DNA from: a virus
Lineage: Duplodnaviria > Heunggongvirae > Uroviricota > Caudoviricetes
Length of the DNA stretch: 64,000 bases
Virus record (IMG/VR): IMGVR_UViG_3300044535_000502
Reading direction: 5' to 3' (one strand)
In this document: one piece after another, positions 50,949-63,754 of the stretch
Numbering within the stretch: the stretch's first letter is position 1
How the letters are laid out: each line of letters begins with the position of its first letter
Notes under the pieces: generated by a model
What the model saw: only the letters and a program-made list of their open reading frames with translations
Database searches by the model: none
What the model was told of the DNA's origin: nothing
Position numbers and translations under genes: made by a program

Positions 50949-50950
50949 AT

Positions 50951-51114: not shown

Positions 51115-51135
51115 CTTTCGTCTTAGTATGGTTCT

Positions 51136-51182: not shown

Positions 51183-51314
51183 TAATGGCTAGGTGGAGAA
51201 TCACCGCCAATGTATTCAGTGCCAAAGCCACGGCATGGAGTATAATGGAGGGTTTGTTCTCAGATACGGACAAAAAGTATGCACTGGTCACAACAAATAG
51301 TAGGTTAATATAAA

Positions 51315-51787: not shown

Positions 51788-52017
51788 TCTTGGACTCCAT
51801 AGCGTGTACGAATGTCGTGAGCGTAACCACCGAGTTCGGGCATGATGTATGAATCTTCGTCCAACATCTTAGCACAATCTTCGGCGATCAATTGGGCGAA
51901 CTTTTCTCCCCAGCCACTGACTAATTCAACAGCTTTTTCTCTAGACACTGGCGTAACTGGATCACCGTAGTGACTCTGAAAAGCCTCAATCATAAGTTCT
52001 TTAATTCGTTCGTTCAT
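51784..52017 (-). CDS. member of the MNERIKEL family (copy B)
   Basis: MNERIKELMIEA...EKFAQLIAEDCAKM...RYGVQE. Confidence 0.5.
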   Translation of the reverse strand: MNERIKELMIEAFQSHYGDPVTPVSREKAVELVSGWGEKFAQLIAEDCAKMLDEDSYIMPELGGYAHDIRTRYGVQE

Positions 52018-52163
52018 AATATAATCTTGATAATGTAATCGTGCTTGATGTTGGCTTCCAGAAACATTCTCCGTGCTTCTGCTTTATTAGCAGCATCAAC
52101 CTCAAAGTGTTCTAGCCCAGGTCTTTGGTAGGACTTATAGACCACAAAGTAATGCTTGGTCAT
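52014..52163 (-). CDS. hypothetical protein (49 aa; the track gives a longer alternative, 52014..52232)
   Basis: A start at MTKHYFVVYK avoids overlap with the 52165..52329 ORF. Confidence 0.3.
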   Translation of the reverse strand: MTKHYFVVYKSYQRPGLEHFEVDAANKAEARRMFLEANIKHDYIIKIIL

Positions 52164-52164
52164 G

Positions 52165-52329
52165 TCACTCCGACCAGCTGGAGATATACTCCTCAATGTT
52201 TTCAATCTCCGTACGGAGTGCATCTGGAGCAACCTTCTCCAATAGCTTTAGGATATCCACCAGAGCATCCTCAGGGACCATATCATACTGGTCCACCATA
52301 TCCATGTATTGTTGGGCTAGGGTTTTCAT
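52165..52329 (-). CDS. small ORF (54 aa)
   Basis: MKTLAQQYMDMVDQYDMVPEDALVDILKLLEK.... ATGA overlap with the upstream gene's stop. Confidence 0.3.
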   Translation of the reverse strand: MKTLAQQYMDMVDQYDMVPEDALVDILKLLEKVAPDALRTEIENIEEYISSWSE

Positions 52330-52532
52330 CCGATTACATCAATTACTTCGTTCTTATCCACCAGAAGAAAACTGGTAGGCTCTGAGCGCCAAGGCAACTG
52401 GACAGGTTCGTCCAGCTCTACTGAGTATTGGACACTGCCACCATACTTCACGCGACTGGAGACAACTCGACCAGTGACGGCTGTGCCAAGGTAGCAAGCC
52501 GAGATTTTTTGTCCATCTAATATCCACGACAT
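52326..52532 (-). CDS. hypothetical protein
   Basis: 68 aa. An AAGGAAA ribosome-binding site is present. Confidence 0.4.
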   Translation of the reverse strand: MSWILDGQKISACYLGTAVTGRVVSSRVKYGGSVQYSVELDEPVQLPWRSEPTSFLLVDKNEVIDVIG

Positions 52533-52545
52533 GGTATTTCCTTAT

Positions 52546-52723
52546 TCAAGCCAGAAGTTTAGCGGCGCGTTCGCAGGCAGTGTCCAATGCAGCCTGAGCA
52601 TGGCACCATTCTTCATAGGCGCGGAGAACATGACTCCGATCTTCTTGGTCGCTGTTTTTTGCTTCGTGAAATGCCACCAGCTTTTCGGCGTATTGGAGGG
52701 CGAGTTCTTGGACAGTATATTTC
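52546..52723 (-). CDS. small leader ORF (59 aa), first gene after cassette copy 4
   Basis: MKYTVQELALQYAEKLVAFHEAKNSDQEDRSH.... Confidence 0.4.
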
Positions 52724-52752
52724 ATTGGTATCTTTCGTCTTGGTATGGTTCT

Positions 52753-52800
52753 ATTATACCAGGATTCTGGTAATTGTCAAGTACATCAAAAGTACTCACT
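52753..52800 (-). promoter_or_regulatory. early promoter cassette copy 4
   Basis: The plus strand reads attataccaggattctggtaattgtcaagtacatcaaaagtactcac. Confidence 0.65.
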
Positions 52801-53128
52801 TGGACATATACTCAATCCACTCCAATAGAATGGCCTTTGCATCCACGTACGGTACACCAAACTCCCGTTCAATATAGGGTGTAGCTCCCCACATGTTGGT
52901 GGCACCAGAATCCCTCAGTTGGATTAGGTAGTCGTGGTGCTCTTGTGTGAGGACTTTACCTAGTAGGGTTTTTTCCCTGGGCTCTACTCGTTCCGGAAGA
53001 CCATCCATGCATTCGTCACACCAGTTGGCGCCACTACCCACATAGACACTACCGTCTTCGGTATGGATTTCTGTTACGGTTTGTTCATGGCCGCAATCGG
53101 TGCAGCGGTACAATGCTTTAACGTTCAT
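52796..53128 (-). CDS. zinc-ribbon protein
   Basis: CTDCGHE...CDEC. 110 aa. Confidence 0.4.
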   Translation of the reverse strand: MNVKALYRCTDCGHEQTVTEIHTEDGSVYVGSGANWCDECMDGLPERVEPREKTLLGKVLTQEHHDYLIQLRDSGATNMWGATPYIEREFGVPYVDAKAILLEWIEYMSK

Positions 53129-53337
53129 TCTTCAACTCCGAAATGTTTTGTAATCTTATTGAAGACCTCAAAGTTACCAGTTGCTTGTCCATCAGTAAGT
53201 GCAATCTCGGCACATTCTGCCACAATCAACTGGGCGAACTTTTCTTTATCAAAATCTTCAATCATTACCTGAGTTGTGGCATTCCAGTATTTGCTTCTAG
53301 TAGCCTGTTCAGCAAGTTCTTTTATTCGTTCACTCAC
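53125..53337 (-). CDS. member of the MNERIKEL family (copy C; apparent GTG start)
   Basis: (V/M)SERIKELAEQA...EKFAQLIVAECAEI...KHFGVEE. Confidence 0.45.
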   Translation of the reverse strand: MSERIKELAEQATRSKYWNATTQVMIEDFDKEKFAQLIVAECAEIALTDGQATGNFEVFNKITKHFGVEE

Positions 53338-53477
53338 ATACTTCCCTTCAAATCAATCATTGCGACTAGAGCCATAATCGCTATGAATTCAATGGGCTTT
53401 TCAATCACATTGATACCCAAAAGACCCAGCACTAGGCCAAGGACGGCATACAAAATCAAACTAATCATTAACATCAT
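53334..53477 (-). CDS. small hydrophobic membrane peptide (47 aa)
   Basis: MMLMISLILYAVLGLVLGLLGINVIEKPIEF.... Confidence 0.3.
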   Translation of the reverse strand: MMLMISLILYAVLGLVLGLLGINVIEKPIEFIAIMALVAMIDLKGSM

Positions 53478-53486
53478 TTTCTCCTA

Positions 53487-53723
53487 TTAAGTCTTATAGT
53501 GGTTAGCATAGCGGTTGAACAGACTGGCCAGGTACTCACCTTTTGTGAACCAAAATGCTAAGTCATAGCATTCATCCACCATTTTCAATGCTTTCTTTGG
53601 CAACCAAAAGGTAGCTTTTTCATTATCTGCTACTACAAATTTGATAGCTGCTGGTGACTCTTGGAGCACCTTTACTGTCAGTGCAGCACGGACATTGCGG
53701 CCTGACCAAATTGTTGTGTACAT
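53487..53723 (-). CDS. hypothetical protein, first gene after cassette copy 5
   Basis: 78 aa. Confidence 0.4.
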   Translation of the reverse strand: MYTTIWSGRNVRAALTVKVLQESPAAIKFVVADNEKATFWLPKKALKMVDECYDLAFWFTKGEYLASLFNRYANHYKT

Positions 53724-53752
53724 GTTCTTTCCTTCTCTGGTGTATGGCTCTA

Positions 53753-53798
53753 TTATACCAGGTTTCTGGTAATTGTCAAGTCAGACTAAAGTACTAAT
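53753..53798 (-). promoter_or_regulatory. early promoter cassette copy 5
   Basis: The plus strand reads attataccaggtttctggtaattgtcaagtcagactaaagtac. Confidence 0.65.
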
Positions 53799-54007
53799 TT
53801 CACTAGGTGGTAGATTCCAGGTATGACGGCTAACATCACCCATAAAGATAGGATCAGGAAAATCAAAATGGCCTGTATCAAGGCTAGTATAAAGTCAAAC
53901 ATGGTTCTGGGGTGGGGTGGTGTAGAGGGGTTCGATTTCTTTGTCTTCCTCGGGAGTCGGTGAATATCCATAAAGTTTCCAATCACCAATTCGTTTAGCC
54001 ATACCAT
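53786..54007 (-). CDS. small membrane protein
   Basis: 73 aa. A C-terminal hydrophobic helix LILSLWVMLAVIPGIY. Confidence 0.35.
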   Translation of the reverse strand: MVWLNELVIGNFMDIHRLPRKTKKSNPSTPPHPRTMFDFILALIQAILIFLILSLWVMLAVIPGIYHLVKLVL

Positions 54008-54025
54008 CCGTGCCGTAGTGGAATC

Positions 54026-54406
54026 TCACACGCCACGCCACGCCACAGGCTCCTGCACAGGTGCTGCGGTTTTGAGTCGGTCTATTGCAAGATACGGGTT
54101 GTCACCCCACTTGCAGCCGAGGGCATCATGCAAATCTAAGCAGACCTGAGCCATCGCATAGGCTTGCGCTACGTTAATCGGCTCTTGCTGTGCTGGCTGT
54201 GCTGCGGGTTCCATCACGCATTCAACGCACGAACAATAGCCCGTTCCACAGTTGGGTGGGCGTTTCTGCACAGGTGCTTCAAGGGCTTGCTTGATGGCGG
54301 TGATGGCTTTACTCGCCATTGATGTGCCGTGACCTTGCGATGGTAGATAGTCCATGTTCCACTCCAACGCCTCCAGCGCCAGCTTCAATGCTTCTTTGTC
54401 ATTCAT
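54026..54406 (-). CDS. hypothetical protein
   Basis: 126 aa. A GAAGGAAACC ribosome-binding site is present. Confidence 0.4.
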   Translation of the reverse strand: MNDKEALKLALEALEWNMDYLPSQGHGTSMASKAITAIKQALEAPVQKRPPNCGTGYCSCVECVMEPAAQPAQQEPINVAQAYAMAQVCLDLHDALGCKWGDNPYLAIDRLKTAAPVQEPVAWRGV

Positions 54407-54418
54407 GGTAGGTTTCCT

Positions 54419-54574
54419 TCAATCAATAAAAACGGGTGTATCAGCCAACACGATAGCCACATCATAGGACTTACGTGCCTTGAACACGGCTGCGGCTTTC
54501 AACTGCGCCTCATATGAGGTGGATGCAGTTACGGTGATAACGCGGTTTTTGTAGAATGCTTGGTAAGTTCTCAT
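54419..54574 (-). CDS. small leader ORF (51 aa), first gene after cassette copy 6
   Basis: MRTYQAFYKNRVITVTASTSYEAQLKAAAVFK.... Confidence 0.4.
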   Translation of the reverse strand: MRTYQAFYKNRVITVTASTSYEAQLKAAAVFKARKSYDVAIVLADTPVFID

Positions 54575-54602
54575 TGGTGTCTTTCTATCTGGTATGGTTC
54601 TA

Positions 54603-54650
54603 TTATACCAGGTTTCTGGTAATTGTCAAGTACAGTAAAAGTACTCAATT
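54603..54650 (-). promoter_or_regulatory. early promoter cassette copy 6
   Basis: The plus strand reads attataccaggtttctggtaattgtcaagtacagtaaaagtactcaa. Confidence 0.65.
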
Positions 54651-54851
54651 ATCAAATTCACACAATTGGTGGTGGTACAGGTCCCACTCTTCGCCCACGT
54701 TCATCCAGTCCGCCACTTTCATAGCTTCGTCCTCGGAATCAAACCGTTTCAGGTCTTCACCTGAGCGAATACCTGGGCTAATGGTTGTCCATCGCACCAG
54801 ACGGAAGTCCATAGTCTTGTCATGGAACTCTACAGTGTATACTTTTGTCAT
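54645..54851 (-). CDS. hypothetical protein
   Basis: 68 aa. Confidence 0.4.
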   Translation of the reverse strand: MTKVYTVEFHDKTMDFRLVRWTTISPGIRSGEDLKRFDSEDEAMKVADWMNVGEEWDLYHHQLCEFDN

Positions 54852-55072
54852 ACAAACAGGTCTCCGTACATTTCTTCGTAAGCGGCATCAAAATCCTCAC
54901 GGATCCACTCAATGGTATATCCGTTCAGTGCGTAGTTATCAGCCATGGCTTGCAAGCGGCGCAGGGCCTGTTCAGCAGTCAGACCCATGCTTGCCATGAT
55001 ACTCAGATTGCTCCAGTGAGCAAAGTTATTGCTATCTTTGTGGGCACTGACTTGGACGAATTGTTTGGTCAT
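54848..55072 (-). CDS. hypothetical protein, first gene after cassette copy 7
   Basis: 74 aa. Confidence 0.4.
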   Translation of the reverse strand: MTKQFVQVSAHKDSNNFAHWSNLSIMASMGLTAEQALRRLQAMADNYALNGYTIEWIREDFDAAYEEMYGDLFV

Positions 55073-55097
55073 TTGGAATCTTTCTGTCTATGGCTCT

Positions 55098-55145
55098 ATT
55101 ATACCAGGTTATAGGTAATTGTCAAGTCAGTGAAAAGTACTCAAT
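55098..55145 (-). promoter_or_regulatory. early promoter cassette copy 7
   Basis: The plus strand reads attataccaggttataggtaattgtcaagtcagtgaaaagtactcaa. Confidence 0.65.
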
Positions 55146-55344
55146 TTCCTGCATAGATGGAAACATACTCTTCACCTTCGTCTAGGTCAAATGGACCACA
55201 ATCACCATCTACTTCATCGGTAATGAATGCTGAGGACAATGGACCACAATCACCTGAGGCGCCGTGCCGATAGAAAACTTCCTTATCGCCATGACCCTCG
55301 GTTTGGAGTTTTTGCAATTGTTCAATAAATTTATTCAGTTTCAT
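55141..55344 (-). CDS. hypothetical acidic protein
   Basis: 67 aa. A TAGGATGA ribosome-binding site is present. Confidence 0.4.
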   Translation of the reverse strand: MKLNKFIEQLQKLQTEGHGDKEVFYRHGASGDCGPLSSAFITDEVDGDCGPFDLDEGEEYVSIYAGN

Positions 55345-55350
55345 AATATC

Positions 55351-55400
55351 ATCCTACGAATTCGTCAATGGTACGGATCAAGTCAGTGGAAAGTACTCAG
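55351..55400 (-). pseudogene. degenerate cassette plus a 3' remnant of a paralog of gene 56047..56343 (encodes ...[11 protein letters not shown])
   Basis: A 27-nt identity (CGTACCATTGACGAATTCGTAGGATGA) with the 3' end of 56047..56343. The upstream AAAGTACTCAG box is retained, but the -35/-10 elements are replaced. Confidence 0.4.
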
Positions 55401-55403
55401 TAT

Positions 55404-55787
55404 TTACAAGTTCAACAATTCACGCTCTTCCGCAGTCAACAATTCATTGACCTTACGCAATGCCTCTGCCTTTACTTCGGCCAGGCGCTTACGTTCAGCA
55501 AGTTCCGCTTCATGGCGATCCAGATCATATTCCAACGATTCTAATTGTTCTTGGCTATCGGGAGAATGTGCGTAAGCCAAAGAGAAATAATCATAACGGT
55601 CGTTACGGTTAGTAAGTTGGAACTTGTTGTTGTTACTTACAGTGAGTTCAAAGTATGCTTTTGTAGCACGTGCCAGAGCAAGCATGAGGCGCTGTGGATA
55701 TTCATCCACTTGCTTTGCGAGGTATGTTTCACGCTCTTGGGCGTATCGTGCATTACGTTGTGCTACTGTTTCACGTGCCATTTCCAA
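55404..55787 (-). CDS. coiled-coil protein
   Basis: 127 aa, Glu/Arg/Leu-rich. Confidence 0.4.
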   Translation of the reverse strand: MEMARETVAQRNARYAQERETYLAKQVDEYPQRLMLALARATKAYFELTVSNNNKFQLTNRNDRYDYFSLAYAHSPDSQEQLESLEYDLDRHEAELAERKRLAEVKAEALRKVNELLTAEERELLNL

Positions 55788-55814
55788 CTCCTGTTTCTTT
55801 CTATCTAAGTCTCT

Positions 55815-55862
55815 ATTATACCAGGTTATAGGTAATTGTCAAGTCAGTCGGAAGTACTCTTT
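55815..55862 (-). promoter_or_regulatory. early promoter cassette copy 8
   Basis: The plus strand reads attataccaggttataggtaattgtcaagtcagtcggaagtactc. Confidence 0.65.
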
Positions 55863-56050
55863 TTATTGGGTGTGAATAGTTCCAACGCCTTAGCTGGATA
55901 AATCTGGACTGAACCCACCTCTGTGAAACTTTCCACAGCATAGCCTTCTGGTGTAAGTTTGGTGCTATAAGTTCCCACAATGGTGCCATGCCACTGTGAG
56001 CCAGACACTTTTCTAACGGTGTCACCTAGTTTGAATTTCATTTGGATCAT
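55844..56050 (-). CDS. small protein (DUF2158-like SH3/KOW-like?)
   Basis: [27 protein letters not shown] overlap with the upstream gene. Confidence 0.35.
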
Positions 56051-56343
56051 CCTACGAATTCGTCAATGGTACGAATCAAGTCCTCAGCATATACGTCCAC
56101 CACTATCTTGCGGACTTTCACTGTAGGAACGCCTTTGACCTTACGGACTTGCATAAATGTGATGTTATACAGGTCAGGGCAAGGCTTGTATTGGATATAC
56201 ACCAAACCTTTGAATGGTGTCATACCAGTTGTTTTAAATTGTAAGCCATCACCCATATCAGTGAGGTCTACTGCACCCCAAGCATACATAGCCCATGGGT
56301 CTAGATATCCAATTTGATCAAGAATAGTCCGAGCGATTTTCAT
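56047..56343 (-). CDS. hypothetical protein
   Basis: 98 aa. The C-terminus ...[12 protein letters not shown] is duplicated as a remnant at 55351..55400. Confidence 0.4.
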
Positions 56344-56457
56344 GATAACTCCAATGAAAGGATTAACCTAAGGTCTCAACGGAGCCACTAACAGTGCCAC
56401 CAACCAAGACCAACACAACACAAACAACGACTAAAAATTCAAACATAAAAACTCCAA

Positions 56458-56646
56458 TCAAACAAAGTCAAAAGCAAATTGATCACCAACAGGAGAGACA
56501 ATCACGCCGTAAGCGGGATTTTCCAAAATCGTTTGGATTTTAGCGGCCTCACGTGGAGTGCATGTCACGAAAAGAGTACCGCTGGTGAATTCAGCATCGG
56601 TGGTGACTTTAGCAACAAGGGAGAGGATTTTTGATTCGAAGGCCAT
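56458..56646 (-). CDS. hypothetical protein, first gene after cassette copy 9
   Basis: 62 aa. Confidence 0.4.
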   Translation of the reverse strand: MAFESKILSLVAKVTTDAEFTSGTLFVTCTPREAAKIQTILENPAYGVIVSPVGDQFAFDFV

Positions 56647-56675
56647 GATTTGTCTTTCTTACTGTCTATGGCTCT

Positions 56676-56722
56676 ATTATACCAGGTTTCCGGTAAGTGT
56701 CAACCAATACCTGACTAAACTT
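56676..56722 (-). promoter_or_regulatory. early promoter cassette copy 9 (variant upstream region)
   Basis: The plus strand reads attataccaggtttccggtaagtgtcaacc. Confidence 0.55.
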
Positions 56723-56745
56723 GGTGTAAGACTAAAGTATTACTT

Positions 56746-57351
56746 TTAGTATATCCAAAATCCTAATCGTTCTGCTGAGGGCGATTCGTACCATGAAGAA
56801 CCTGGTGGTTGCTCAATGGATTCGTTTTTCCAAACGGGTATTATAGTGTTGCATGAATGGTTGGTGAAGTCGTCATTGTACCTTGCATGGACTTCAATCG
56901 GATTACCACCAACATACTCTACATTGATCCATTCGTATTTTTCTGATAAGTGCTTTAGCGGAAGTGGTATTGGAATGTGCTTATCTATTTTAGTCCATCT
57001 GCAAAATCTATCAAGCCTATCACTGTTTCTAAACCCTTGTACACAAATGTGTTGTTGACCATAATGATAGTCTACTGAGATATGGTCACCAGTGAAAAAC
57101 TCACACCAAAAATAACCATCTGGAATTGCGTTAACATCATTGGGCGTTAGCCATTGCTTTGCTGCACCACGACTCATCATGCGGAGATTGGTTATAGGGC
57201 GAACAATGTACCAATTAGGGCTATCAACTGGAACACCTGCGGGCGCGGCTTTATATCCAAGTTTCTTGGCTAGGATTAGCTTATCATAAATCCAAAGATC
57301 GTCAGCATCTAATGTATGCCAAACATCTTTGTCATCTATCAGGAAAGTCAA
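56746..57351 (-). CDS. hypothetical protein
   Basis: 201 aa. DKLILAKKLGYKAAPAGV is weakly ATP-grasp-like. Confidence 0.3.
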   Translation of the reverse strand: MTFLIDDKDVWHTLDADDLWIYDKLILAKKLGYKAAPAGVPVDSPNWYIVRPITNLRMMSRGAAKQWLTPNDVNAIPDGYFWCEFFTGDHISVDYHYGQQHICVQGFRNSDRLDRFCRWTKIDKHIPIPLPLKHLSEKYEWINVEYVGGNPIEVHARYNDDFTNHSCNTIIPVWKNESIEQPPGSSWYESPSAERLGFWIY

Positions 57352-57526
57352 TCGGTTTACCTGAGTTGGTATAGTGGCGTTCTTTGATACCTTCTTTTTT
57401 GGCTAGTGCTATGGCTTCGTTTCGGAGCTTTACAAACTCCTCATATGCTTCCTGAGTGCCTATTCTATAACCACCATCACCTGCGTTCATATCTGCGCCA
57501 GCTTTGATATTGTCTTTATCGTTCAT
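57332..57526 (-). CDS. hypothetical protein
   Basis: 64 aa. Confidence 0.3.
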   Translation of the reverse strand: MNDKDNIKAGADMNAGDGGYRIGTQEAYEEFVKLRNEAIALAKKEGIKERHYTNSGKPIDFPDR

Positions 57527-57741
57527 ACCATCATGTCTATAATGTTTTGTTGATTGTGTTTGGTCACGACTGCATTTTTATCATACACTTCAATGGTATC
57601 ATGATAGCTTCTGGTGACTACTGAGCCATTGGGATACGTGGTTTGTTCCCAGACTGTTTTGTTTATAACGCCTTTACCCACGGCTGAGGTGGGTAATACA
57701 CCTGTGAAACTGGTGTTATAAAATGTTATGGGTTGATTCAC
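57523..57741 (-). CDS. hypothetical protein
   Basis: 72 aa. ATGA overlap. Confidence 0.35.
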   Translation of the reverse strand: MNQPITFYNTSFTGVLPTSAVGKGVINKTVWEQTTYPNGSVVTRSYHDTIEVYDKNAVVTKHNQQNIIDMMV

Positions 57742-57959
57742 TCTGGTACCTCGATAAGTTGGAATATCTTATACTCGCGCTTTTCCTTACCTCTGTTATC
57801 TGGGCGTGACTGACAGTATGCTTGGAAGTTCTTGGCTTCTTCCATTGTGCCATAAAAGACTTCGCTACCAGATGCATACAGACCTACGTGACCGCTATCG
57901 CCTTCCCAATAGAAGCCTACGCCATACATAAACTTCTTTGCTTCTTTCTTTTTAGTCAT
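57738..57959 (-). CDS. hypothetical protein
   Basis: 73 aa. ATGA overlap. Confidence 0.35.
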   Translation of the reverse strand: MTKKKEAKKFMYGVGFYWEGDSGHVGLYASGSEVFYGTMEEAKNFQAYCQSRPDNRGKEKREYKIFQLIEVPE

Positions 57960-58273
57960 TCCGGCACTCTTCCAAACAAACAGTATATTTCAAACCACTT
58001 TGTGGGTGCATTCTCTATAAAATAGGGATTCACTCTCCATGACATACCATCAGGACCCCACTGCCAGTGTCTGGTACCAAATCTAATATTGAACCAAAGG
58101 TTGCTCATATTACACACCATCAGTCAAATAGATGAACACCCTGAAACCGGCTACAATTGTTCCAAGTACAATACCCGCTGGCGGAAATACTATAATGGCA
58201 ACAGTCAAAAGTCCGATTAGGAATCCGATTGATAACTGCACAGACAACGGCAATGATTTAAATTTATTCCACA

Positions 58274-58552
58274 TTACTTAACTCCAAAATGATTTACAAT
58301 TTCACGACCAGCTTCACTAGCAGCCATATCCCATGTATGTCCGAACGTTTTTCTAACTTCAACATCAGTATCTGGAAAAGGTGTTGCTCTGGCAATTCTA
58401 GCACATTCCTGAACAATTAGCTCGGCAAACTTTTCTAATGTGATCCACTCGTCTGTACTGTCAGTTTCAACAGTTTTGATTTCATGTGTTTCAGTTAGAT
58501 CATAAAGGTAATAGCCGGCTTCTCTTGCAAGGTCTTTAATTCGTTCGTTCAT
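58274..58552 (-). CDS. member of the MNERIKEL family (copy D)
   Basis: MNERIKDLAREA...EKFAELIVQECARI...NHFGVK. Confidence 0.5.
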   Translation of the reverse strand: MNERIKDLAREAGYYLYDLTETHEIKTVETDSTDEWITLEKFAELIVQECARIARATPFPDTDVEVRKTFGHTWDMAASEAGREIVNHFGVK

Positions 58553-58994
58553 ACGTAGCCTTTCCTAACTTGGCATCTACCATACGGTGTCGCTCAATGT
58601 CTTCTATAAACTTTTCATTAGGTCGGTTGATAACATAAGCCGGTCTACCACCAAAGTACACTGCAAAGCCACCAACCAAGTCGCTTTCAATGATACAAAC
58701 ATATGCACTGGTAATAGCTTGACCACCAATCCCACCGAAGCCTAGTGCTGTGCTACTCCAGGTCTGTGGAAACATATTGTACACAGTCAAGTCATATAAT
58801 GAATGCTTGCGAGACTTCTCAACAAAACAATCGGCTGGTGCTACCGCTGTTTTCATTTCTTCTCGCGTCAGCGTAGCTCGCCACTTATCATGTTTGGCCC
58901 AGTCGCGGTCTTGATACTTGTATTCAGGAAACGCCACATATGCGGCATGAGCCATACAGCCAGCTAGGGTTTCAATAGGGTTAGTTGCGTTCAT
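58536..58994 (-). CDS. hypothetical protein
   Basis: 152 aa. Confidence 0.35.
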   Translation of the reverse strand: MNATNPIETLAGCMAHAAYVAFPEYKYQDRDWAKHDKWRATLTREEMKTAVAPADCFVEKSRKHSLYDLTVYNMFPQTWSSTALGFGGIGGQAITSAYVCIIESDLVGGFAVYFGGRPAYVINRPNEKFIEDIERHRMVDAKLGKATYERTN

Positions 58995-59233
58995 TCTTCA
59001 ATTCCGAAATGTTCTTTTATCTTTTCACTGATAAGATGTGTATATTCACACTCCTCGGTATCGGGAGTGTTCATCTGAGCAACTTCGGCACATTCCTTCA
59101 CAATCAACTCAGCAAACTTTTCATGGTCAAAGAATTCACGGTAATGTGTAATACCTGTATCAGGATTATACACATCAGTCGTCACTGTTGCTTCCAGAAT
59201 AAATTCTTGGATTCGCGTATTAGTCGTGGTCAT
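58991..59233 (-). CDS. member of the MNERIKEL family (copy E; start uncertain)
   Basis: ...IQEFILEA...EKFAELIVKECAEV...KEHFGIEE. Confidence 0.4.
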   Translation of the reverse strand: MTTTNTRIQEFILEATVTTDVYNPDTGITHYREFFDHEKFAELIVKECAEVAQMNTPDTEECEYTHLISEKIKEHFGIEE

Positions 59234-59702
59234 ATTCTTGAACATCAAAACCTTCACGGGTCGCAAACACCTTGCAGTGATCGCCGAACATGTCAAGGAA
59301 CACATCATCCGAAATCTTAGAAAGCAATTTGCGCAATGCTTCACTATTCGCAGAAACGGAATCAGGAATCAATTCTTCATTGTGATCACCATAGTCGGGA
59401 TCATTGATCCAAACAGTTTCATCATCACCTTCATATTCACCATACCGGACACTATCATAGTCCACTGCATTGGAAACAAATGCGTATGATGCATAGCAAT
59501 TGAATGTACATGCATCTCCATCATTGAAGTATGGAGTGTATTGACGCCAGCCGACAACCTTTACCTCAGGATTTGCATCAAAGAATTCTTTGAATGCAAG
59601 TTTGAAAATTTCTTGGCCGCGTTTCTGGTATGTCGCTTTCAGTTCTTCCATTTCGGCGTTCATTTGGTCGAACAATGCTTCGATTTCGTTGATTTGTTTC
59701 AT
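59220..59702 (-). CDS. hypothetical acidic protein
   Basis: 160 aa. Confidence 0.35.
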   Translation of the reverse strand: MKQINEIEALFDQMNAEMEELKATYQKRGQEIFKLAFKEFFDANPEVKVVGWRQYTPYFNDGDACTFNCYASYAFVSNAVDYDSVRYGEYEGDDETVWINDPDYGDHNEELIPDSVSANSEALRKLLSKISDDVFLDMFGDHCKVFATREGFDVQEYDHD

Positions 59703-59704
59703 GA

Positions 59705-60130
59705 TTAAACTCCAAATTTAGTTGATACGTCTTCAATAATAATTTCTTGTGGAACGAACTCGACCACAATAGATTCTGCTACACGGGTGTAGAACCCATC
59801 ACCACCATAACCAGTGTACTCGCCGATAATGTCCATTGCAATATCTAGAGGTTCATAGATGCTATCTGGCCGTGAATGTTTCAGAAAAACTCTAATAACA
59901 GCTTCCTGAAATGCTTCAAGTTCACTATCCCTAGGATTATACATGTTACCGAATACTGTTTTGTCGTTGCTGTTACTACCCACAATCAACTTCAAAAGAT
60001 CAATATGAAAATTAACTTCATCTTCATTCAAACCCTCGACAGTTTTGGTATTGTAATTGTCTGCGTCATTTTCCCAAGAGGTGACGGTAATACGATATCC
60101 AGCTTTAATTATTGACATGTTAGTCCTCAA
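59705..60130 (-). CDS. hypothetical protein
   Basis: 141 aa. Confidence 0.35.
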   Translation of the reverse strand: MRTNMSIIKAGYRITVTSWENDADNYNTKTVEGLNEDEVNFHIDLLKLIVGSNSNDKTVFGNMYNPRDSELEAFQEAVIRVFLKHSRPDSIYEPLDIAMDIIGEYTGYGGDGFYTRVAESIVVEFVPQEIIIEDVSTKFGV

Positions 60131-60476
60131 GTTTGATAAATTTACTACGGTTGGTTTTCATTGTGCCTGACATCCAAGGTTGGAGCGTCATGTTGTTTAG
60201 ATACATTTCCATGGTAGGAATGAAGCCTAGGTCTTGCTGAATGTGGTCTTCGGCAATGTCTCTTGGGCTGTACTCTTTGCCATCTGAATTAATTCTGGTT
60301 CTACCGAACATTTGTTCAACGACAAAACAGCCAAAAGCAGAGTGTAGTACGGCTCGGTGCCGCACATCTGCAACCGATGCTTTAGAGCTGTCAATGAAGT
60401 CGTCAATGTCTGCGTAGTCATCGGCGACTCCTCCATATTTTTTAGCGTGGATTTTTCCATGCAGATAGGCTTTCAT
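60120..60476 (-). CDS. hypothetical protein
   Basis: 118 aa. Confidence 0.35.
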   Translation of the reverse strand: MKAYLHGKIHAKKYGGVADDYADIDDFIDSSKASVADVRHRAVLHSAFGCFVVEQMFGRTRINSDGKEYSPRDIAEDHIQQDLGFIPTMEMYLNNMTLQPWMSGTMKTNRSKFIKLED

Positions 60477-60493
60477 TCACCACTCCGAAATGT

Positions 60494-61291
60494 TTACTTA
60501 CCCATCATCAAAGCATTGAAGTTGGATGGCACAACGATTGTCTGCACCTTGCCGTTCTTGATACCTTCTGAGATATTCAACATAGCTTGTGCTTGCATGA
60601 ATGCAATGGAACTGCCTGAGTTGTTAGCCAATGCAGCCATACGACGGCTTTCGGCCTCAGCAGTTTTCACTTCCACTTCCTTTTGCTTCAATTCGTTTTT
60701 GCTACGAACCAATGCGTTAGCGGATTCTACCACTGTATCACTTGGCAATACGTTACGGATCATGACCTGGGAGATAGTGATACTACCGTCAAGTTTTTCC
60801 TCAGCAAGGTTTCGCTGAATTTCATCCTTGATATAGTTTTCCATATCCGTGCGGTTATCAGCCATGTCCAATGCTTCATACTTTCGTGCGGCTTTGTAGA
60901 TGGCATTCCGTGCGTTTTGCACCACATAGTTATACATCACATATGTGTCACCTTTGAATTCTGCGTGGAACGATTTGTTCTTTGCGGAGTATAGTTCAGC
61001 AACGGTTTGTGGATTGATGTTGTAAACAACCACAGCGTCCAAGTCTTTCATGGTGCTGTTGTCTTTTGCAACGGGTGTCATATTCTCCAGGACTACGTTA
61101 ACGTCCTTGACTGGGAAAGTCAAAATAGTGCCAACGATAGTTTGGTTGAATGATCCAGGCAGCAACTCACCAGACTGCACCTGTTTATCAAAGCCGACAC
61201 GAACACCGACCTCACCAGTTTCAATACGAGTACATGCGGAAGTCAAAGCAACGGCTGCGGCGATAGCGCCAAGTTTCAGGTAACGATTCAT
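60494..61291 (-). CDS. SPFH/band-7 (stomatin/prohibitin-like) domain lipoprotein
   Basis: Signal peptide with the lipobox LTSAC at the MNRYLKLGAIAAAVALTSAC start. SPFH-like core GEVGVRVGF.... A GGAG ribosome-binding site is present. Confidence 0.5.
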   Translation of the reverse strand: MNRYLKLGAIAAAVALTSACTRIETGEVGVRVGFDKQVQSGELLPGSFNQTIVGTILTFPVKDVNVVLENMTPVAKDNSTMKDLDAVVVYNINPQTVAELYSAKNKSFHAEFKGDTYVMYNYVVQNARNAIYKAARKYEALDMADNRTDMENYIKDEIQRNLAEEKLDGSITISQVMIRNVLPSDTVVESANALVRSKNELKQKEVEVKTAEAESRRMAALANNSGSSIAFMQAQAMLNISEGIKNGKVQTIVVPSNFNALMMGK

Positions 61292-61292
61292 A

Positions 61293-61379
61293 TTAAAGAA
61301 CTCCAAAAGAAAAAAGAACAAAACAAACAAGGAAGCCCAGGATGAAATACAAGGGCCTTAGCAAAAGGTCACTGAACAT
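61293..61379 (-). CDS. small hydrophobic peptide (28 aa)
   Basis: MFSDLLLRPLYFILGFLVCFVLFSFGVL. A GGAG ribosome-binding site is present. Confidence 0.25.
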   Translation of the reverse strand: MFSDLLLRPLYFILGFLVCFVLFSFGVL

Positions 61380-61388
61380 GATAACTCC

Positions 61389-61565
61389 TTAAAAGAGGAC
61401 AACAATACCAACAAGAATTGCTACTGCGATAAGAGAACACATTGTAGCATAGCCAACAACTTTTGTCAACTGCCATTTTTGTTTACCAGACAAACTTCGG
61501 AACATGGTAATCAAGAATGCAATGAGGGCGCTTAGGATCGCCCAGGCCAAAATAACTCGGATCAT
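61389..61565 (-). CDS. small membrane protein (58 aa, 2 predicted transmembrane segments)
   Basis: MIRVILAWAILSALIAFLITMF...ATMCSLIAVAILVGIVVLF. Confidence 0.35.
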   Translation of the reverse strand: MIRVILAWAILSALIAFLITMFRSLSGKQKWQLTKVVGYATMCSLIAVAILVGIVVLF

Positions 61566-61647
61566 GGTTTCATCATAAAAAGGAAGTAATAAAAGAAAGG
61601 ACCAAACATCAGAGTGGCGATGATGGCGGCTTGGAAGATTTCAGTAA
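61562..61647 (-). CDS. small hydrophobic peptide (29 aa), first ORF after cassette copy 10
   Basis: MKLITEIFQAAIIATLMFGPFFYYFLFMMKP. ATGA overlap with the next ORF. Confidence 0.25.
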
Positions 61648-61654
61648 TCAGTTT

Positions 61655-61700
61655 CATAGGTTCTATTATACAGATTGGTGGAGACTTGTCAAGTGGTTTT
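61655..61700 (-). promoter_or_regulatory. early promoter cassette copy 10 (variant spacer)
   Basis: The plus strand reads attatacagattggtggagacttgtcaagtggtttt. Confidence 0.55.
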
Positions 61701-61980
61701 ACATTGACCAAAAAGATTCTGACGCAGGATTACAACACCATGGTGTGTCGCGGTCGATTTGGACATCCTCGCCAGTCATGTAACTTTTGACGGTAATTGT
61801 GGTTGGGTGACATTCAAAGCGCCACCCTTTTGTCGCGGGATACAGGTCATACAATTCGTTGCACTCGCGGCGGATCGTGGCTTCATCACGGTTAGGCCAC
61901 ACGGTAGTGGAGAACAGGCGCTCACCAGTCTTGCAACGGCGGTCGGCTTTGTAAATATACATTGTATAATTTTGCTTCAT
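61699..61980 (-). CDS. hypothetical protein
   Basis: 93 aa. Confidence 0.4.
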   Translation of the reverse strand: MKQNYTMYIYKADRRCKTGERLFSTTVWPNRDEATIRRECNELYDLYPATKGWRFECHPTTITVKSYMTGEDVQIDRDTPWCCNPASESFWSM

Positions 61981-61989
61981 AACTACTCC

Positions 61990-62157
61990 TTAGAAAAGTT
62001 TGGCACCTTCAGCCATGAACACACGATAGGCGCGCATGGTATCATAACTGTATGCTGACATACCACGCTCTTGGATATCCAGAAGTGTTTCCAAAAGACC
62101 CAAGCCCAAGTGTTCGGCTTCTTGGTTGATTTGCGCGATTGCCGTGGTGATATCCAT
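61990..62157 (-). CDS. small leader ORF (55 aa), first gene after cassette copy 11
   Basis: MDITTAIAQINQEAEHLGLGLLETLLDIQERG.... Confidence 0.4.
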   Translation of the reverse strand: MDITTAIAQINQEAEHLGLGLLETLLDIQERGMSAYSYDTMRAYRVFMAEGAKLF

Positions 62158-62187
62158 TTTGATTCCTTCGTTTCGTTCTAAGTCTCT

Positions 62188-62237
62188 ATTATACCAGGTT
62201 CTAGGTAATTGTCAAGTACAGTAAAAGTACTCACTTC
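62188..62237 (-). promoter_or_regulatory. early promoter cassette copy 11
   Basis: The plus strand reads attataccaggttctaggtaattgtcaagtacagtaaaagtactcac. Confidence 0.65.
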
Positions 62238-62392
62238 TGAACTTCGTACCACCAGCCATTCAGTCGGAATGTTTCCATGTCCGCTTCGCTGATCCAACCT
62301 TCGCACCAAATATCACCAATTTTGGTGGCTTGCATTGAAGTGCAGCGCAAGGCTTCCAGAGCTTGGAGGCGATAAAAAAGAATTCTTGTCAT
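62231..62392 (-). CDS. small ORF (53 aa)
   Basis: ATGA overlap with the upstream gene. Its stop codon lies within the TGAGTACT box of cassette 11. Confidence 0.35.
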   Translation of the reverse strand: MTRILFYRLQALEALRCTSMQATKIGDIWCEGWISEADMETFRLNGWWYEVQK

Positions 62393-62637
62393 ACTAAGTC
62401 CACCTGTACTTGGATACGCTCGGATTCCATCTTTTCATTGTAGCACGAAAAGGTGGTCGCGAGTCCGGTAATTTTTTCTTTAACCATACGCTCCAGTGCA
62501 AACTGAACCGCGATGCGCTGGTTACGATACATGATATCGTCAGTCCCCGATGCTGTAGTAAAAAATGCTACATTATTGAGGATCACACGGATACGTTGGG
62601 AGTTTTTCAAGCCACGGATCAACTGTTTGGTTCGCAT
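62389..62637 (-). CDS. hypothetical protein, first gene after cassette copy 12
   Basis: 82 aa. Confidence 0.4.
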   Translation of the reverse strand: MRTKQLIRGLKNSQRIRVILNNVAFFTTASGTDDIMYRNQRIAVQFALERMVKEKITGLATTFSCYNEKMESERIQVQVDLV

Positions 62638-62669
62638 TAGGGTCTCGCTTTCTGTCTGTCTAAGGCTCT

Positions 62670-62715
62670 ATTATACCACGCCCATGGTAATTGTCAATAG
62701 GTAAAAGATGTTGGT
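62670..62715 (-). promoter_or_regulatory. early promoter cassette copy 12 (leftmost minus-strand promoter)
   Basis: The plus strand reads attataccacgcccatggtaattgtcaataggtaaaag. Confidence 0.6.
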
Positions 62716-63387: not shown

Positions 63388-63534
63388 ATGTCTGTTATGT
63401 CAGAGCTTTGGATGGATGTTCAAGATATGCTGGAACGCGGCGAGTCGTGGCAAAATGTGGCTGACACGCTGAACGTGCCTGTGTCATGGGTTGAGGAAGT
63501 CGCCCGCGAGATGGCCGAGTTTGAAAATGAATAA
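63388..63534 (+). CDS. small acidic ORF (48 aa)
   Basis: MSVMSELWMDVQDMLERGESW.... ATGA overlap with the next gene. Confidence 0.3.
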   Translation: MSVMSELWMDVQDMLERGESWQNVADTLNVPVSWVEEVAREMAEFENE

Positions 63535-63754
63535 ACAATTTAGAGAACTTGCTGAACAAGCAAGCATTGAGTTTACTTATGACGTAACCGAAACACCAGC
63601 GCGAGCATTTGCTGAATGTTGGGAAGATGAATTGGAAAAGTTTGCCGAGTTGATTGTTCGGCAATGTGCATTGACTGCTGGTCTTATGGAGCATGATGGT
63701 CGTAAAAACATCGGCGCAAATATTCTAGATAGTTTTGGAATTCAAGATGACTGA
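63527..63754 (+). CDS. member of the MNERIKEL family on the plus strand (copy F)
   Basis: MNKQFRELAEQA...EKFAELIVRQCALT...DSFGIQDD. Confidence 0.45.
   Translation: MNKQFRELAEQASIEFTYDVTETPARAFAECWEDELEKFAELIVRQCALTAGLMEHDGRKNIGANILDSFGIQDD

What the first reader, a model, noticed from the sequence alone, without database searches (positions are those of the whole stretch)
60494..61647. SPFH/band-7 lipoprotein preceded by three tiny hydrophobic peptides in one early operon
Downstream of cassette copy 10 there are three consecutive membrane micro-ORFs of 29, 58 and 28 aa, coupled by ATGA overlap or an RBS. They are followed by a 266-aa protein with a lipoprotein signal peptide (LTSAC) and an SPFH (stomatin/prohibitin/HflK-like) core. 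In bacteria SPFH proteins partner with small membrane proteins of the NfeD/YqiJ type and organise membrane microdomains or regulate membrane proteases. A phage-encoded SPFH module in an early operon could remodel the host membrane or protect against membrane-acting abortive-infection systems.
Basis: partly seen in the sequence, partly recalled or inferred. Interest (0 to 1): 0.6.

Follow-up and report, generated by a model that had tools for sequence, protein, structure and literature searches.

The report
Phage SPFH lipoprotein plus membrane microproteins
An environmental T4-like phage carries, in its early region, a prohibitin/HflC-like (SPFH) lipoprotein gene that is almost always preceded by a tiny two-helix membrane protein; phage SPFH genes are already annotated in many phages with no known function, and the constant small partner is the only new detail.

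Summary
A 265-aa lipoprotein (60494-61291) has a clear SPFH/Band 7 domain (Pfam 65 bits, phrog_200). Its predicted fold matches full-length cage-forming SPFH proteins (prohibitin, HflK/C, stomatin). It is preceded by ORFs of 31, 58 and 28 aa.

In 80 related viral contigs, the 58-aa two-helix ORF sits directly upstream in 80 of 81 loci (dN/dS 0.33). The 28-aa ORF is present in about 43% (dN/dS 0.21). The 31-aa ORF occurs only in the 3 closest relatives and starts 7 nt after a promoter, so it is leaderless or untranslated. Flanking genes turn over almost completely, so [2-TM]-[±28 aa]-[SPFH] is one conserved module. Ten of 12 distinct phage lineages also have a small membrane protein just upstream of their SPFH gene.

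None of the small proteins is NfeD- or YqiJ-like. Most bacterial chromosomal homologues (Bdellovibrio, Comamonadaceae) lack the partner. A conserved sigma-70 promoter lies inside the 58-aa ORF.

Phage SPFH genes have been listed since 2006 and their function is unknown. The best guess is a periplasm-facing SPFH cage over the microprotein(s), acting on the envelope early in infection. This is a new member of a known, uncharacterised kind, of moderate interest.

The parts
61665..61692 (-). Promoter P1. It is a perfect TTGACA-N16-TATAAT site and a degenerate copy of the repeated early-promoter cassette. Only 7 nt separate the -10 hexamer from the ATG of the 31-aa ORF.
   Evidence: The same arrangement is found in L006-L008.
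61562..61657 (-). 31-aa single-helix ORF (MKLITEIFQAAIIATLMFGPFFYYFLFMMKP). It has no Shine-Dalgarno site, so it would be leaderless or nearly so. Its stop overlaps the start of the 58-aa ORF (ATGA). Whether it is coding is unresolved.
   Evidence: It is present only in the 3 closest relatives of 80. Other loci carry unrelated genes at this position.
61389..61565 (-). 58-aa two-helix hairpin microprotein with a basic central loop (R23, K28, K30, K35). This is the constant partner of the SPFH gene.
   Evidence: It lies directly upstream of SPFH in 80 of 81 loci, and 63 copies are exactly 58 codons long. dN/dS is 0.33 in frame, against 0.96 and 1.44 in the other two frames. No known family matches. 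Homologous uncalled ORFs occur in Parvibium and Roseateles chromosomes.
61441..61469 (-). Promoter P2, inside the 58-aa ORF: TTGACAAAAGTTGTTGGCTATGCTACAAT (11 of 12 matches, with TG before the -10 hexamer). It would transcribe the 28-aa ORF and SPFH without the 58-aa ORF.
   Evidence: The Leu33 codon is TTG in 39 of 40 unique relatives that have Leu at that position, against 29% TTG at other Leu positions. TTGAC(A/T)-N17-TA...T is kept in about 37 of 48 unique sequences.
61293..61379 (-). 28-aa single-helix microprotein (MFSDLLLRPLYFILGFLVCFVLFSFGVL). It has its own AAGGAG site (61385-61390). It is an optional insert between the 58-aa ORF and SPFH.
   Evidence: It is present in about 35 of 81 loci and cleanly absent in the rest. 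dN/dS is 0.21 in frame, against 0.73 and 1.55 in the other frames. The consensus is MinDrwLRPLYF.LGFvvCFyLFStGVI.
60494..61291 (-). SPFH/Band 7 lipoprotein, 265 aa. The signal peptide and lipobox end at Cys20 (codon 61232-61234). The SPFH core spans about residues 25-183. Long helices run at 185-223 and 227-245. A conserved C-terminal GKVxTIIxP strand follows.
   Evidence: Pfam, 65.4 bits. phrog_200. AlphaFold mean pLDDT is 76.7, with the core at 85-93. Foldseek matches PHB1/2 at 1.2e-9, HflK/C at 3.6e-9, and also stomatin, erlin, QmcA and flotillin. Lipobox. dN/dS 0.075.

Best explanation
This is a conserved two- to three-gene phage module in the early, hyperplastic region of a T4-like phage. 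It encodes an SPFH lipoprotein exported to the periplasmic side of the envelope, plus a co-transcribed inner-membrane two-helix microprotein of 58 aa. That microprotein's start overlaps the stop of whatever gene precedes it. About 43% of relatives also carry a 28-aa single-helix peptide.

Most likely, the SPFH protein assembles into a ring or cage, as prohibitin, HflK/C, stomatin and QmcA do. The cage would sit on the periplasmic face of the cytoplasmic membrane, over the microprotein(s), which would serve as its membrane-embedded client or fence. This would create a phage-specified membrane microdomain early in infection.

The promoter inside the 58-aa gene would make SPFH in excess over that partner. 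That fits a many-subunit cage around few clients.

The physiological role is not known. My preferred guess is protection or closure of the infected cell's envelope, for example against entry of a superinfecting phage or against premature permeabilisation.

Shown: SPFH fold, lipobox, gene order, coupling signals, coding selection, module conservation, promoter motifs.
Inferred: export and lipidation, cage formation, physical interaction, early timing, physiological role.
For: Identity:
- Pfam Band_7 65.4 bits and phrog_200.
- The full-length fold matches cage-forming SPFH proteins, including the two long C-terminal helices.
- A nearly invariant C-terminal GKVxTIIxP motif.
- Lipoprotein pattern in 81 of 81 loci.

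Linkage:
- The 2-TM ORF is directly upstream in 80 of 81 loci.
- The window's flanking genes are absent from almost all relatives, and 36 different gene clusters follow SPFH.
- A small TM protein lies upstream of SPFH in 10 of 12 distinct phage lineages. These are BUCT-ZZ01, XC38, PhT2, Det7, S-CREM1, Bphi-R2919, B23, phiAB441 and BCSR5, plus this clade. AM24 is the exception and Bacillus phage Kirov is ambiguous.
- Both small ORFs have frame-specific low dN/dS.

Timing:
- A consensus sigma-70 promoter lies upstream and a second lies inside the 58-aa ORF.
- No TATAAATA late motif occurs in the module.

Precedent: bacterial SPFH genes sit in operons behind a membrane partner (NfeD), and QmcA-YbbJ forms a cage (PMC13086221; PDB 8z5g among the hits).
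Against: - No oligomer or complex was modelled or measured.
- The +2 residue after the lipid-modified Cys is Thr in nearly all members, never Asp. Under E. coli sorting rules this sends a lipoprotein to the outer membrane, away from an inner-membrane partner. The host and its sorting rules are unknown.
- Most bacterial homologues at 51-67% identity have no partner ORF, so the SPFH protein can evidently work alone.
- Partners in distant phage lineages show no detectable sequence similarity to the 58-aa family. The shared arrangement could therefore be convergent, or partly reflect the abundance of small membrane ORFs in phage early regions.
- SPFH is very conserved (dN/dS 0.075). This fits a conserved host target better than an arms-race interface such as superinfection exclusion.
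- I found no functional study of any phage SPFH protein.
Confidence: 0.45

Rival explanations
1. HflK/C mimic. The phage SPFH lipoprotein faces the periplasm like HflK/C. It captures or shields the host FtsH protease, or another membrane protease, and so changes the turnover of host or phage membrane proteins. The microprotein acts as adaptor or protected substrate.
For: - HflK/C-FtsH structures are among the best structural matches (9cz2 at 3.6e-9; also 7vhq and 7wi3).
- The predicted orientation is the same side of the membrane as HflK/C.
- Very strong purifying selection (dN/dS 0.075) suits a conserved host target.
- JGI auto-names the family 'regulator of protease activity HflC', but that is only the COG name.
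Against: - There is no sequence-level match to HflK, HflC or any solved SPFH protein.
- There is no NCBIfam HflK/HflC hit.
- It is a single gene, not an HflK/HflC pair.
- It has a lipid anchor where HflK/C have an N-terminal helix.
- Prohibitin and stomatin match as well as HflK/C do.
- No protease gene lies in the module.
Confidence: 0.2
2. Outer-membrane lipoprotein. After Lol sorting, the SPFH protein sits on the inner leaflet of the outer membrane. There it masks or immobilises a receptor or channel, giving superinfection exclusion in the manner of T5 Llp or Cor (those examples are from my own knowledge). The inner-membrane microproteins would be separate early membrane proteins that merely travel with it.
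For: - The +2 residue is Thr, Ser or Gly, never Asp, in this clade, Det7, and the Acinetobacter phages XC38, PhT2 and AM24.
- A prophage-encoded HflK/C-like SPFH protein of Pasteurella multocida is released in outer-membrane vesicles (PMC9872710). Its relatedness to this family was not tested.
Against: - The tight, translationally coupled and evolutionarily stable pairing with an inner-membrane hairpin is hard to explain if the two act in different membranes.
- Sorting rules differ among bacteria, and the host is unknown.
- High conservation is atypical of receptor-masking proteins.
Confidence: 0.12
3. Lysis-timing device. The 58-aa hairpin is a class II-like holin or antiholin, and the SPFH cage restrains it.
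For: The 58-aa protein gives weak matches to lambda-S-type holin profiles in three libraries. phrog_126 gives E 0.0067. TIGR01594 gives 13.8 bits. PF05106 gives 12.9 bits. The two-helix topology is also holin-like.
Against: - All these matches are far below the curated cut-offs (55 and 23.8 bits). They fall on hydrophobic segments, and the three models represent one family.
- Only sigma-70-type promoters are present, with no late motif.
- No endolysin or spanin was recognised among the neighbours scanned.
- The same SPFH subfamily is a stand-alone chromosomal gene in bacteria.
Confidence: 0.08
4. Passenger gene. A host SPFH lipoprotein gene was picked up by the phage lineage and has no specific role in infection. 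The small ORFs are incidental features of a promoter-bearing leader.
For: - Close bacterial chromosomal homologues exist.
- The conserved LTK and Y(S/A)(I/T) residues of the 58-aa ORF coincide with promoter hexamers.
Against: - The module is retained in all 80 relatives while everything around it is replaced.
- dN/dS is 0.075 for SPFH.
- There is a frame-specific coding signal over the whole length of both small ORFs, not only at the promoter.
- The same arrangement occurs in unrelated phage families.
Confidence: 0.05

Closest known systems
Phage SPFH/Band 7 lipoproteins (PHROG 200 'lipoprotein'). Examples are Vi01-like Kuttervirus genes such as Det7 gp58 and Sajous1 gp200, Acinetobacter phage genes, and the T4-like ORFs 44RR ORF098c, Aeh1 ORF064c and RB43 ORF139c.
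   Same: - Same domain, length (about 265-275 aa), lipobox and C-terminal helices.
- Same position behind a small membrane ORF.
- Annotated as 'SPFH domain band 7 family (lipo)protein' in GenBank records and papers (PMC1524935, PMC3220722, PMC10892097).
   Different: Only 24-30% identity to those isolates. The nearest isolate, BUCT-ZZ01, is 45% identical. The window belongs to a separate and very abundant metagenomic clade (470 IMG/VR relatives). None of these proteins has a known function.
Bacterial SPFH-NfeD operons (QmcA-YbbJ, YqiK-YqiJ, FloA/FloT with NfeD, Pyrococcus PH1511-PH1510)
   Same: - An SPFH gene immediately preceded by, and coupled to, a gene for a membrane partner.
- The SPFH fold matches QmcA of the QmcA-YbbJ cage (8z5g).
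- The operon logic is as described in PMC13086221 and in the Yokoyama and Matsui review cited there.
   Different: - The partners here are bare 28- to 58-residue helices. They have no NfeD OB-fold or ClpP domain and no YqiJ (DUF1449) match.
- The SPFH protein is a periplasm-facing lipoprotein, whereas QmcA and YqiK are N-terminally anchored and face the cytoplasm.
HflK/HflC-FtsH complex
   Same: Periplasm-facing SPFH architecture with long helices that build a cage. It is a high-ranking structural match.
   Different: - No sequence-level relationship was detectable.
- One gene instead of two paralogues.
- A lipid anchor instead of a transmembrane helix.
- No evidence of a protease client.
Chromosomal SPFH lipoproteins of Bdellovibrio/Bacteriovorax and freshwater Burkholderiales (Rhodoferax, Polaromonas, Aquabacterium, Massilia, Parvibium)
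   Same: - 51-70% identity over the full length, with the same ...GC-TRIETGEVG lipobox and start of the mature protein.
- Parvibium and Roseateles also carry a homologous 60-aa two-helix ORF just upstream, uncalled in the Parvibium gene calls.
   Different: Most (about 78 of 80 loci) lack the small partner and sit in varied housekeeping contexts. They are not in phage early regions.
PeSL early promoter / stem-loop cassettes of T4-type hyperplastic regions
   Same: Repeated cassettes carrying a consensus early promoter, scattered among small variable ORFs, with wholesale gene replacement between relatives (PMC2839356, PMC4122927).
   Different: These cassettes are only the setting of the module, not the module itself. 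The copy in front of it is degenerate. The stem-loop/terminator half of the PeSL definition was not tested here.

Membership tests
SPFH / Band 7 superfamily (PF01145) | Profile match above the curated threshold | tested here: met
   65.4 bits against a cut-off of 23.6, E 8.8e-18, covering residues 23-215.
SPFH / Band 7 superfamily (PF01145) | SPFH alpha/beta core followed by long coiled-coil helices, as in cage-forming members | tested here: met
   The AlphaFold core has pLDDT 85-93, with helices at 185-223 and 227-245. Foldseek gives full-length matches to PHB1/2, HflK/C, stomatin, erlin, QmcA and flotillin at E 1e-9 to 1e-5.
SPFH / Band 7 superfamily (PF01145) | Assembly into a large ring or cage on a membrane | not testable with these tools
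   Only a monomer could be modelled. Cage formation is inferred from the fold and the conserved C-terminal GKVxTIIxP motif.
Bacterial lipoprotein (PROSITE PS51257-type signal) | A basic n-region, a hydrophobic h-region, and a lipobox ending in Cys between residues 15 and 35 | tested here: met
   The pattern is met with Cys20. It is also met in 81 of 81 related phage loci and 128 of 137 aligned homologues. Actual lipidation was not testable.
PHROG 200 (phage 'lipoprotein') | Profile match | tested here: met
   E 2.5e-31, 110 bits, residues 8-231. tblastn finds 195 phage records.
SPFH-NfeD operon | The partner gene encodes an NfeD domain (OB-fold, with or without a ClpP-like protease) | tested here: not met
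   No NfeD match at E up to 1-5 for any of the three small ORFs or for partners from other phage lineages. At 28-58 aa they are too short to hold the domain.
SPFH-NfeD operon | A membrane partner gene immediately upstream of, and coupled to, the SPFH gene | tested here: met
   The ATGA overlap and the ribosome-binding sites were read from the sequence. The adjacency is kept in 80 of 81 loci.
HflK/HflC | Match to HflK/HflC family models or sequences; a pair of paralogous genes; an N-terminal transmembrane helix | tested here: not met
   No NCBIfam HflK/HflC hit. No PDB sequence hit at E up to 1. It is a single gene with a lipobox instead of a helix.
HflK/HflC | Association with FtsH | not testable with these tools
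   No interaction data are available.
Holin (for the 58-aa ORF) | Match to a holin family above threshold; late expression; adjacency to an endolysin | tested here: not met
   Best matches are 13.8 bits against 55 (TIGR01594), 12.9 against 23.8 (PF05106), and phrog_126 at E 0.0067. Only sigma-70-type promoters are present. No lysis gene was recognised among the neighbours scanned.
Known anti-phage defence proteins (PADLOC) | Profile match of any of the four products | tested here: not met
   No match at E up to 0.1.
PeSL cassette (setting of the module) | A repeated unit with a consensus early promoter between small ORFs of a hyperplastic region | tested here: met
   12 perfect TTGACA-N16-TATAAT sites with conserved flanks on one strand, against 0.7 expected from shuffles for matches with up to one mismatch. 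Flanking genes turn over.
PeSL cassette (setting of the module) | An associated stem-loop or terminator element | not tested
   A short palindrome (ACCAG...CTGGT) is visible in the promoter spacer, but no folding or comparison was done.

The most novel reading that the evidence does not exclude
The SPFH lipoprotein and its microprotein(s) form a previously undescribed, minimal, periplasm-side SPFH cage system made by phages. The cage would enclose a patch of inner membrane early in infection and act as a new type of envelope-level conflict device. It might block DNA entry by superinfecting phages, or neutralise membrane-permeabilising abortive-infection effectors. Under this reading, the rule 'SPFH plus a bare transmembrane microprotein' would define a phage-specific counterpart of SPFH-NfeD operons across Straboviridae-like, Ackermannviridae, Schitoviridae and other phages.
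Probability: 0.15. Interest if true: 0.7.

Novelty: new member of a known kind. Interest (0 to 1): 0.38.

Why it matters
SPFH cages (HflK/C, prohibitin, stomatin, flotillin, QmcA-YbbJ) have only recently been visualised. What most bacterial ones do is still unclear.

Phages from several families keep an SPFH lipoprotein under strong purifying selection. This metagenomic clade is very abundant: 470 IMG/VR relatives and thousands of protein clusters.

The constant pairing with a 58-residue hairpin suggests a very small SPFH-client system. Such a system could be tractable for structural and genetic work, and it points to an envelope-level function during early infection.

The analysis also shows that conserved microproteins of 28 and 58 aa are overlooked. 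The homologous ORF in the Parvibium chromosome was not called as a gene.

It also shows a promoter constraining codon choice inside a coding sequence.

Tried and rejected
- Megablast of the region against phage genomes found no match.
- BLASTP of the 58-aa protein against the equally long partner in BUCT-ZZ01 gave no alignment.
- An HMM of the 58-aa family placed the partners of Det7, BUCT-ZZ01, S-CREM1, PhT2 and XC38 at decoy level. Homology across lineages therefore cannot be claimed.
- PADLOC, NCBIfam and PDB sequence searches were uninformative for SPFH.
- Rfam gave only sub-threshold noise.
- The homologue search with a six-lineage alignment returned the same abundant clade and added nothing. 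A search with the BUCT-ZZ01 protein was needed to get diversity for the structure prediction.
- Clustering of neighbours in bacterial loci was dominated by spurious high-GC ORFs and showed no conserved neighbour.
- Three literature searches found no functional study of a phage SPFH protein.
- I considered the holin reading and rejected it as the main explanation, because the matches are sub-threshold and the promoters are of the early type.
- I considered whether promoter P2 is general. A near-consensus site occurs inside the partner gene in PhT2 and phiAB441 but not in the other lineages, so it is not a universal feature.
Full report
**What is in the sequence**

All the genes of the finding lie on the minus strand. 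Reading 5' to 3' on that strand:

- A perfect TTGACA-N16-TATAAT promoter at 61692-61665.
- A 31-aa ORF at 61657-61562.
- A 58-aa ORF at 61565-61389, whose ATG overlaps the previous stop (ATGA).
- A 28-aa ORF at 61379-61293, with AAGGAG 5 nt upstream.
- A 265-aa ORF at 61291-60494, with GGAG 9 nt upstream. Its ATG lies 1 nt after the previous stop.

Hydropathy gives one, two and one membrane helices for the small ORFs.

The next gene (60476-60120) follows after 17 nt with its own GGAG and no terminator. The transcription unit therefore continues past the SPFH gene.

**Identity of the large protein**

- Pfam Band_7 (PF01145) matches at 65.4 bits against a cut-off of 23.6.
- PHROG 200, annotated 'lipoprotein', matches at E 2.5e-31.
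- An AlphaFold model built on 137 homologues has a mean pLDDT of 76.7, with 85-93 over residues 60-220. It shows an alpha/beta core followed by helices at 185-223 and 227-245.
- Foldseek against the PDB returns full-length cage-forming SPFH proteins. These are prohibitin 1/2 (1.2e-9), HflK/C (3.6e-9), stomatin, erlin, QmcA of the QmcA-YbbJ complex, and flotillin.
- Sequence searches alone find no solved relative and no NCBIfam family, so this is a divergent subfamily.
- The N-terminus fits the PROSITE-type lipoprotein pattern with Cys20. So do all 81 related phage loci and 128 of 137 aligned homologues. The residue after the Cys is Thr in nearly all members and never Asp.

**The window is a phage**

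Its large genes are a T4-type DNA polymerase (about 52% identical to cyanomyovirus polymerases), a DnaB-like helicase, ribonucleotide reductase and a virion protein. No tRNA genes were found.

Between 49.6 and 62.7 kb the minus strand carries 12 perfect TTGACA-N16-TATAAT sites with conserved flanks. Shuffles give 0.7 expected matches when up to one mismatch is allowed. These resemble the early promoter cassettes (PeSLs) described for hyperplastic regions of T4-type phages (PMC2839356, PMC4122927).

No T4-type late motif (TATAAATA) lies nearer than 48.7 kb. Early expression is therefore a reasonable inference, but it has not been shown.

**Are the small ORFs real?**

A scan of IMG/VR found 470 relatives of the SPFH protein. 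The best 80 loci are 85-95% identical. In these loci plus the window:

- A two-helix ORF lies directly upstream of SPFH in 80 of 81 loci. One locus, L036, has an in-frame stop. Sixty-three copies are exactly 58 codons long.
- Nei-Gojobori dN/dS for the 58-aa ORF is 0.33 in the annotated frame. It is 0.96 and 1.44 in the other two frames.
- The 28-aa ORF is present in about 35 of 81 loci and cleanly absent from the rest. Its dN/dS is 0.21, against 0.73 and 1.55 in the other frames.
- SPFH itself has a dN/dS of 0.075.
- The 31-aa ORF occurs only in the three closest relatives, with 3 synonymous and 3 non-synonymous differences. Elsewhere unrelated genes occupy its place, still overlapping the start of the 58-aa ORF.

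The ATG of the 31-aa ORF lies only 7 nt after the -10 hexamer. The other cassettes have a leader of 20-30 nt with a purine-rich site. The 31-aa ORF would therefore have to be translated from a leaderless or near-leaderless mRNA.

The 58-aa ORF has no ribosome-binding site of its own, so its translation may depend on coupling to the upstream ORF. That is an inference.

**A module, not an accident of gene order**

- The window's three upstream genes are found in only 3-5 of about 75 related loci.
- Its three downstream neighbours are found in none.
- The gene directly after SPFH falls into 36 unrelated clusters among 79 loci.
- Only [2-TM]-[±28 aa]-[SPFH] stays constant.

The arrangement recurs in other phage lineages whose SPFH proteins are only 24-45% identical to this one:

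| Lineage | Upstream small membrane ORF |
|---|---|
| BUCT-ZZ01 | 58 aa |
| Det7 (Ackermannviridae) | 69 aa |
| XC38 (Schitoviridae) | 87 aa |
| PhT2 (T4-like) | 57 aa and 90 aa |
| Bphi-R2919 (Obolenskvirus) | 83 aa |
| phiAB441 | 92 aa |
| Cyanophage S-CREM1 | 53 aa |
| Cyanophage B23 | 54 aa |
| Burkholderia jumbo phage BCSR5 | 65 aa, with a tRNA gene inserted between it and SPFH |

AM24-type phages are an exception, and Bacillus phage Kirov is ambiguous.

These partners match no Pfam, PHROG, NCBIfam or PADLOC family apart from their own orphan PHROGs. They show no detectable similarity to the 58-aa family. Common descent of the partners is therefore unproven.

**A promoter inside the partner gene**

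The 58-aa ORF contains TTGACAAAAGTTGTTGGCTATGCTACAAT (61469-61441). In the relatives:

- The Leu33 codon that forms the start of the -35 hexamer is TTG in 39 of 40 unique sequences that have Leu there. TTG makes up 29% of Leu codons elsewhere in the ORF.
- About 37 of 48 unique sequences keep TTGAC(A/T)-N17-TA...T, although synonymous sites are close to saturation (pS 0.66).

This promoter would transcribe the 28-aa ORF and SPFH without the 58-aa ORF. That implies an excess of SPFH over the hairpin.

PhT2 and phiAB441 have a comparable site in their partner genes. The other lineages do not.

**Bacterial relatives**

One hundred and thirty-five species-representative genomes encode relatives. 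The best are Bdellovibrio and Bacteriovorax (60-67% identity) and freshwater Burkholderiales (51-58%). The two loci inspected, Parvibium lacunae and Bdellovibrio L093, lie in ordinary chromosomal contexts.

Only Roseateles, a contig binned as Saccharibacteria, and Parvibium lacunae have a homologous two-helix ORF upstream. The HMM of the 58-aa family scores these at 23, 41 and 16 bits, against 10.9 bits for the best decoy. In Parvibium that ORF was not called as a gene.

So the SPFH lipoprotein can stand alone in bacteria, and the constant partner is mainly a feature of the phage copies.

**What is already known**

- SPFH/Band 7 ORFs were listed in T4-like phages in 2006 (PMC1524935).
- Many viral Band 7 proteins appear in the BFVD structure library.
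- JGI auto-names 97%-identical metagenomic proteins 'regulator of protease activity HflC'.
- A prophage-encoded HflK/C-like protein of Pasteurella multocida is released in outer-membrane vesicles (PMC9872710). Its relation to this family was not tested.
- I found no study of what a phage SPFH protein does.
- Bacterial SPFH genes usually sit behind an NfeD gene, and QmcA-YbbJ forms a cage (PMC13086221).

**Interpretation**

The best-supported reading is a periplasm-facing SPFH ring or cage, lipid-anchored, assembling over the co-encoded hairpin (and the 28-aa helix where present) in the cytoplasmic membrane early in infection.

- The fold, lipobox, linkage, coding signals and promoter motifs are shown.
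- Export, oligomerisation, interaction, timing and role are inferred.

The Thr at +2 argues for outer-membrane sorting under E. coli rules, which is a real objection. So is the partner-less state of most bacterial homologues.

The alternatives cannot be excluded with these tools: an HflK/C-like effect on FtsH, an outer-membrane exclusion lipoprotein, a lysis-timing device, or a passenger gene. They are ranked in the rival list.

**Verdict**

The SPFH call is right. The 'NfeD/YqiJ-type partner' idea is wrong in detail but right in spirit.

The item is a new member of an already annotated but uncharacterised kind of phage gene. The undescribed regularity is the conserved microprotein partner, with a promoter embedded in it. 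Interest is moderate.

Noticed in passing
window 49660-62697, minus strand: Twelve perfect TTGACA-N16-TATAAT sites with conserved flanks (…AGTACTTT..CTGAC TTGACAATTACC…CTGGTATAAT AGAGCCATA…AGAAAGA…ATG). Many have a short palindrome (ACCAG…CTGGT) in the spacer. They look like PeSL-type early promoter cassettes of T4-type hyperplastic regions.
   Followed up: partly
window 61441-61469, minus strand: A sigma-70-type promoter is embedded in the 58-aa coding sequence. It constrains codon choice: Leu33 is TTG in 39 of 40 unique relatives that have Leu at that position.
   Followed up: yes
window 61655-61670, minus strand: Only 7 nt separate the -10 hexamer of the degenerate cassette copy from the ATG of the 31-aa ORF, and there is no Shine-Dalgarno site. 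This points to a possible leaderless mRNA. The arrangement is conserved in L006-L008.
   Followed up: partly
L090 3805-3987 (Parvibium lacunae chromosome, between aspS and a NUDIX gene): An uncalled 60-aa two-helix ORF, homologous to the phage 58-aa family, lies 14 nt upstream of a chromosomal SPFH lipoprotein gene. It is a missed microprotein gene in a bacterial genome.
   Followed up: partly
L092-L102 (Bdellovibrio and Bacteriovorax genomes): The closest bacterial homologues of the phage SPFH protein (60-67% identity) are in predatory Bdellovibrionota. They are closer than those of freshwater Burkholderiales (51-58%). In the one locus inspected (L093, next to katG) the gene is chromosomal and has no partner ORF.
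   Followed up: partly
window 58991-59344 and 63491-63754; many ORFs in L026, L072, L081, L083 and others: A multi-copy family of small proteins with the motif (K/E)FAELIV.EC… and a C-terminal HFG(V/I)E(E/L). Copies occur at different positions in 25 related loci and at least twice in the window. It behaves as a mobile small gene of the hyperplastic region.
   Followed up: partly
L006-L085, first 25 codons of SPFH: Presence of the 28-aa ORF goes with the signal-peptide variant …TSAC (27 of 33 loci) rather than …ATGC (6 of 36 loci). This suggests that the 28-aa ORF and the 5' end of SPFH are exchanged as one recombination block.
   Followed up: partly
L003 about 1906-1940; L089 about 1078-1112: Acinetobacter phages PhT2 and phiAB441 also have an 11-of-12 sigma-70-like site inside the 3' part of the partner gene, just upstream of their SPFH gene.
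   Followed up: no
L036, about 190-10 nt upstream of the SPFH start: This is the only related locus in which the two-helix ORF is interrupted by an in-frame stop (…TGGCTAG…). It is either a pseudogene or an assembly error.
   Followed up: no
window 24715-27246 and 31011-32762, plus strand: An 843-aa protein combines a cytidyltransferase-like domain with an ATPase-like domain (phrog_3041, phrog_2071). A 583-aa protein carries a short 'toxin' PHROG domain (phrog_353). Neither was examined.
   Followed up: no
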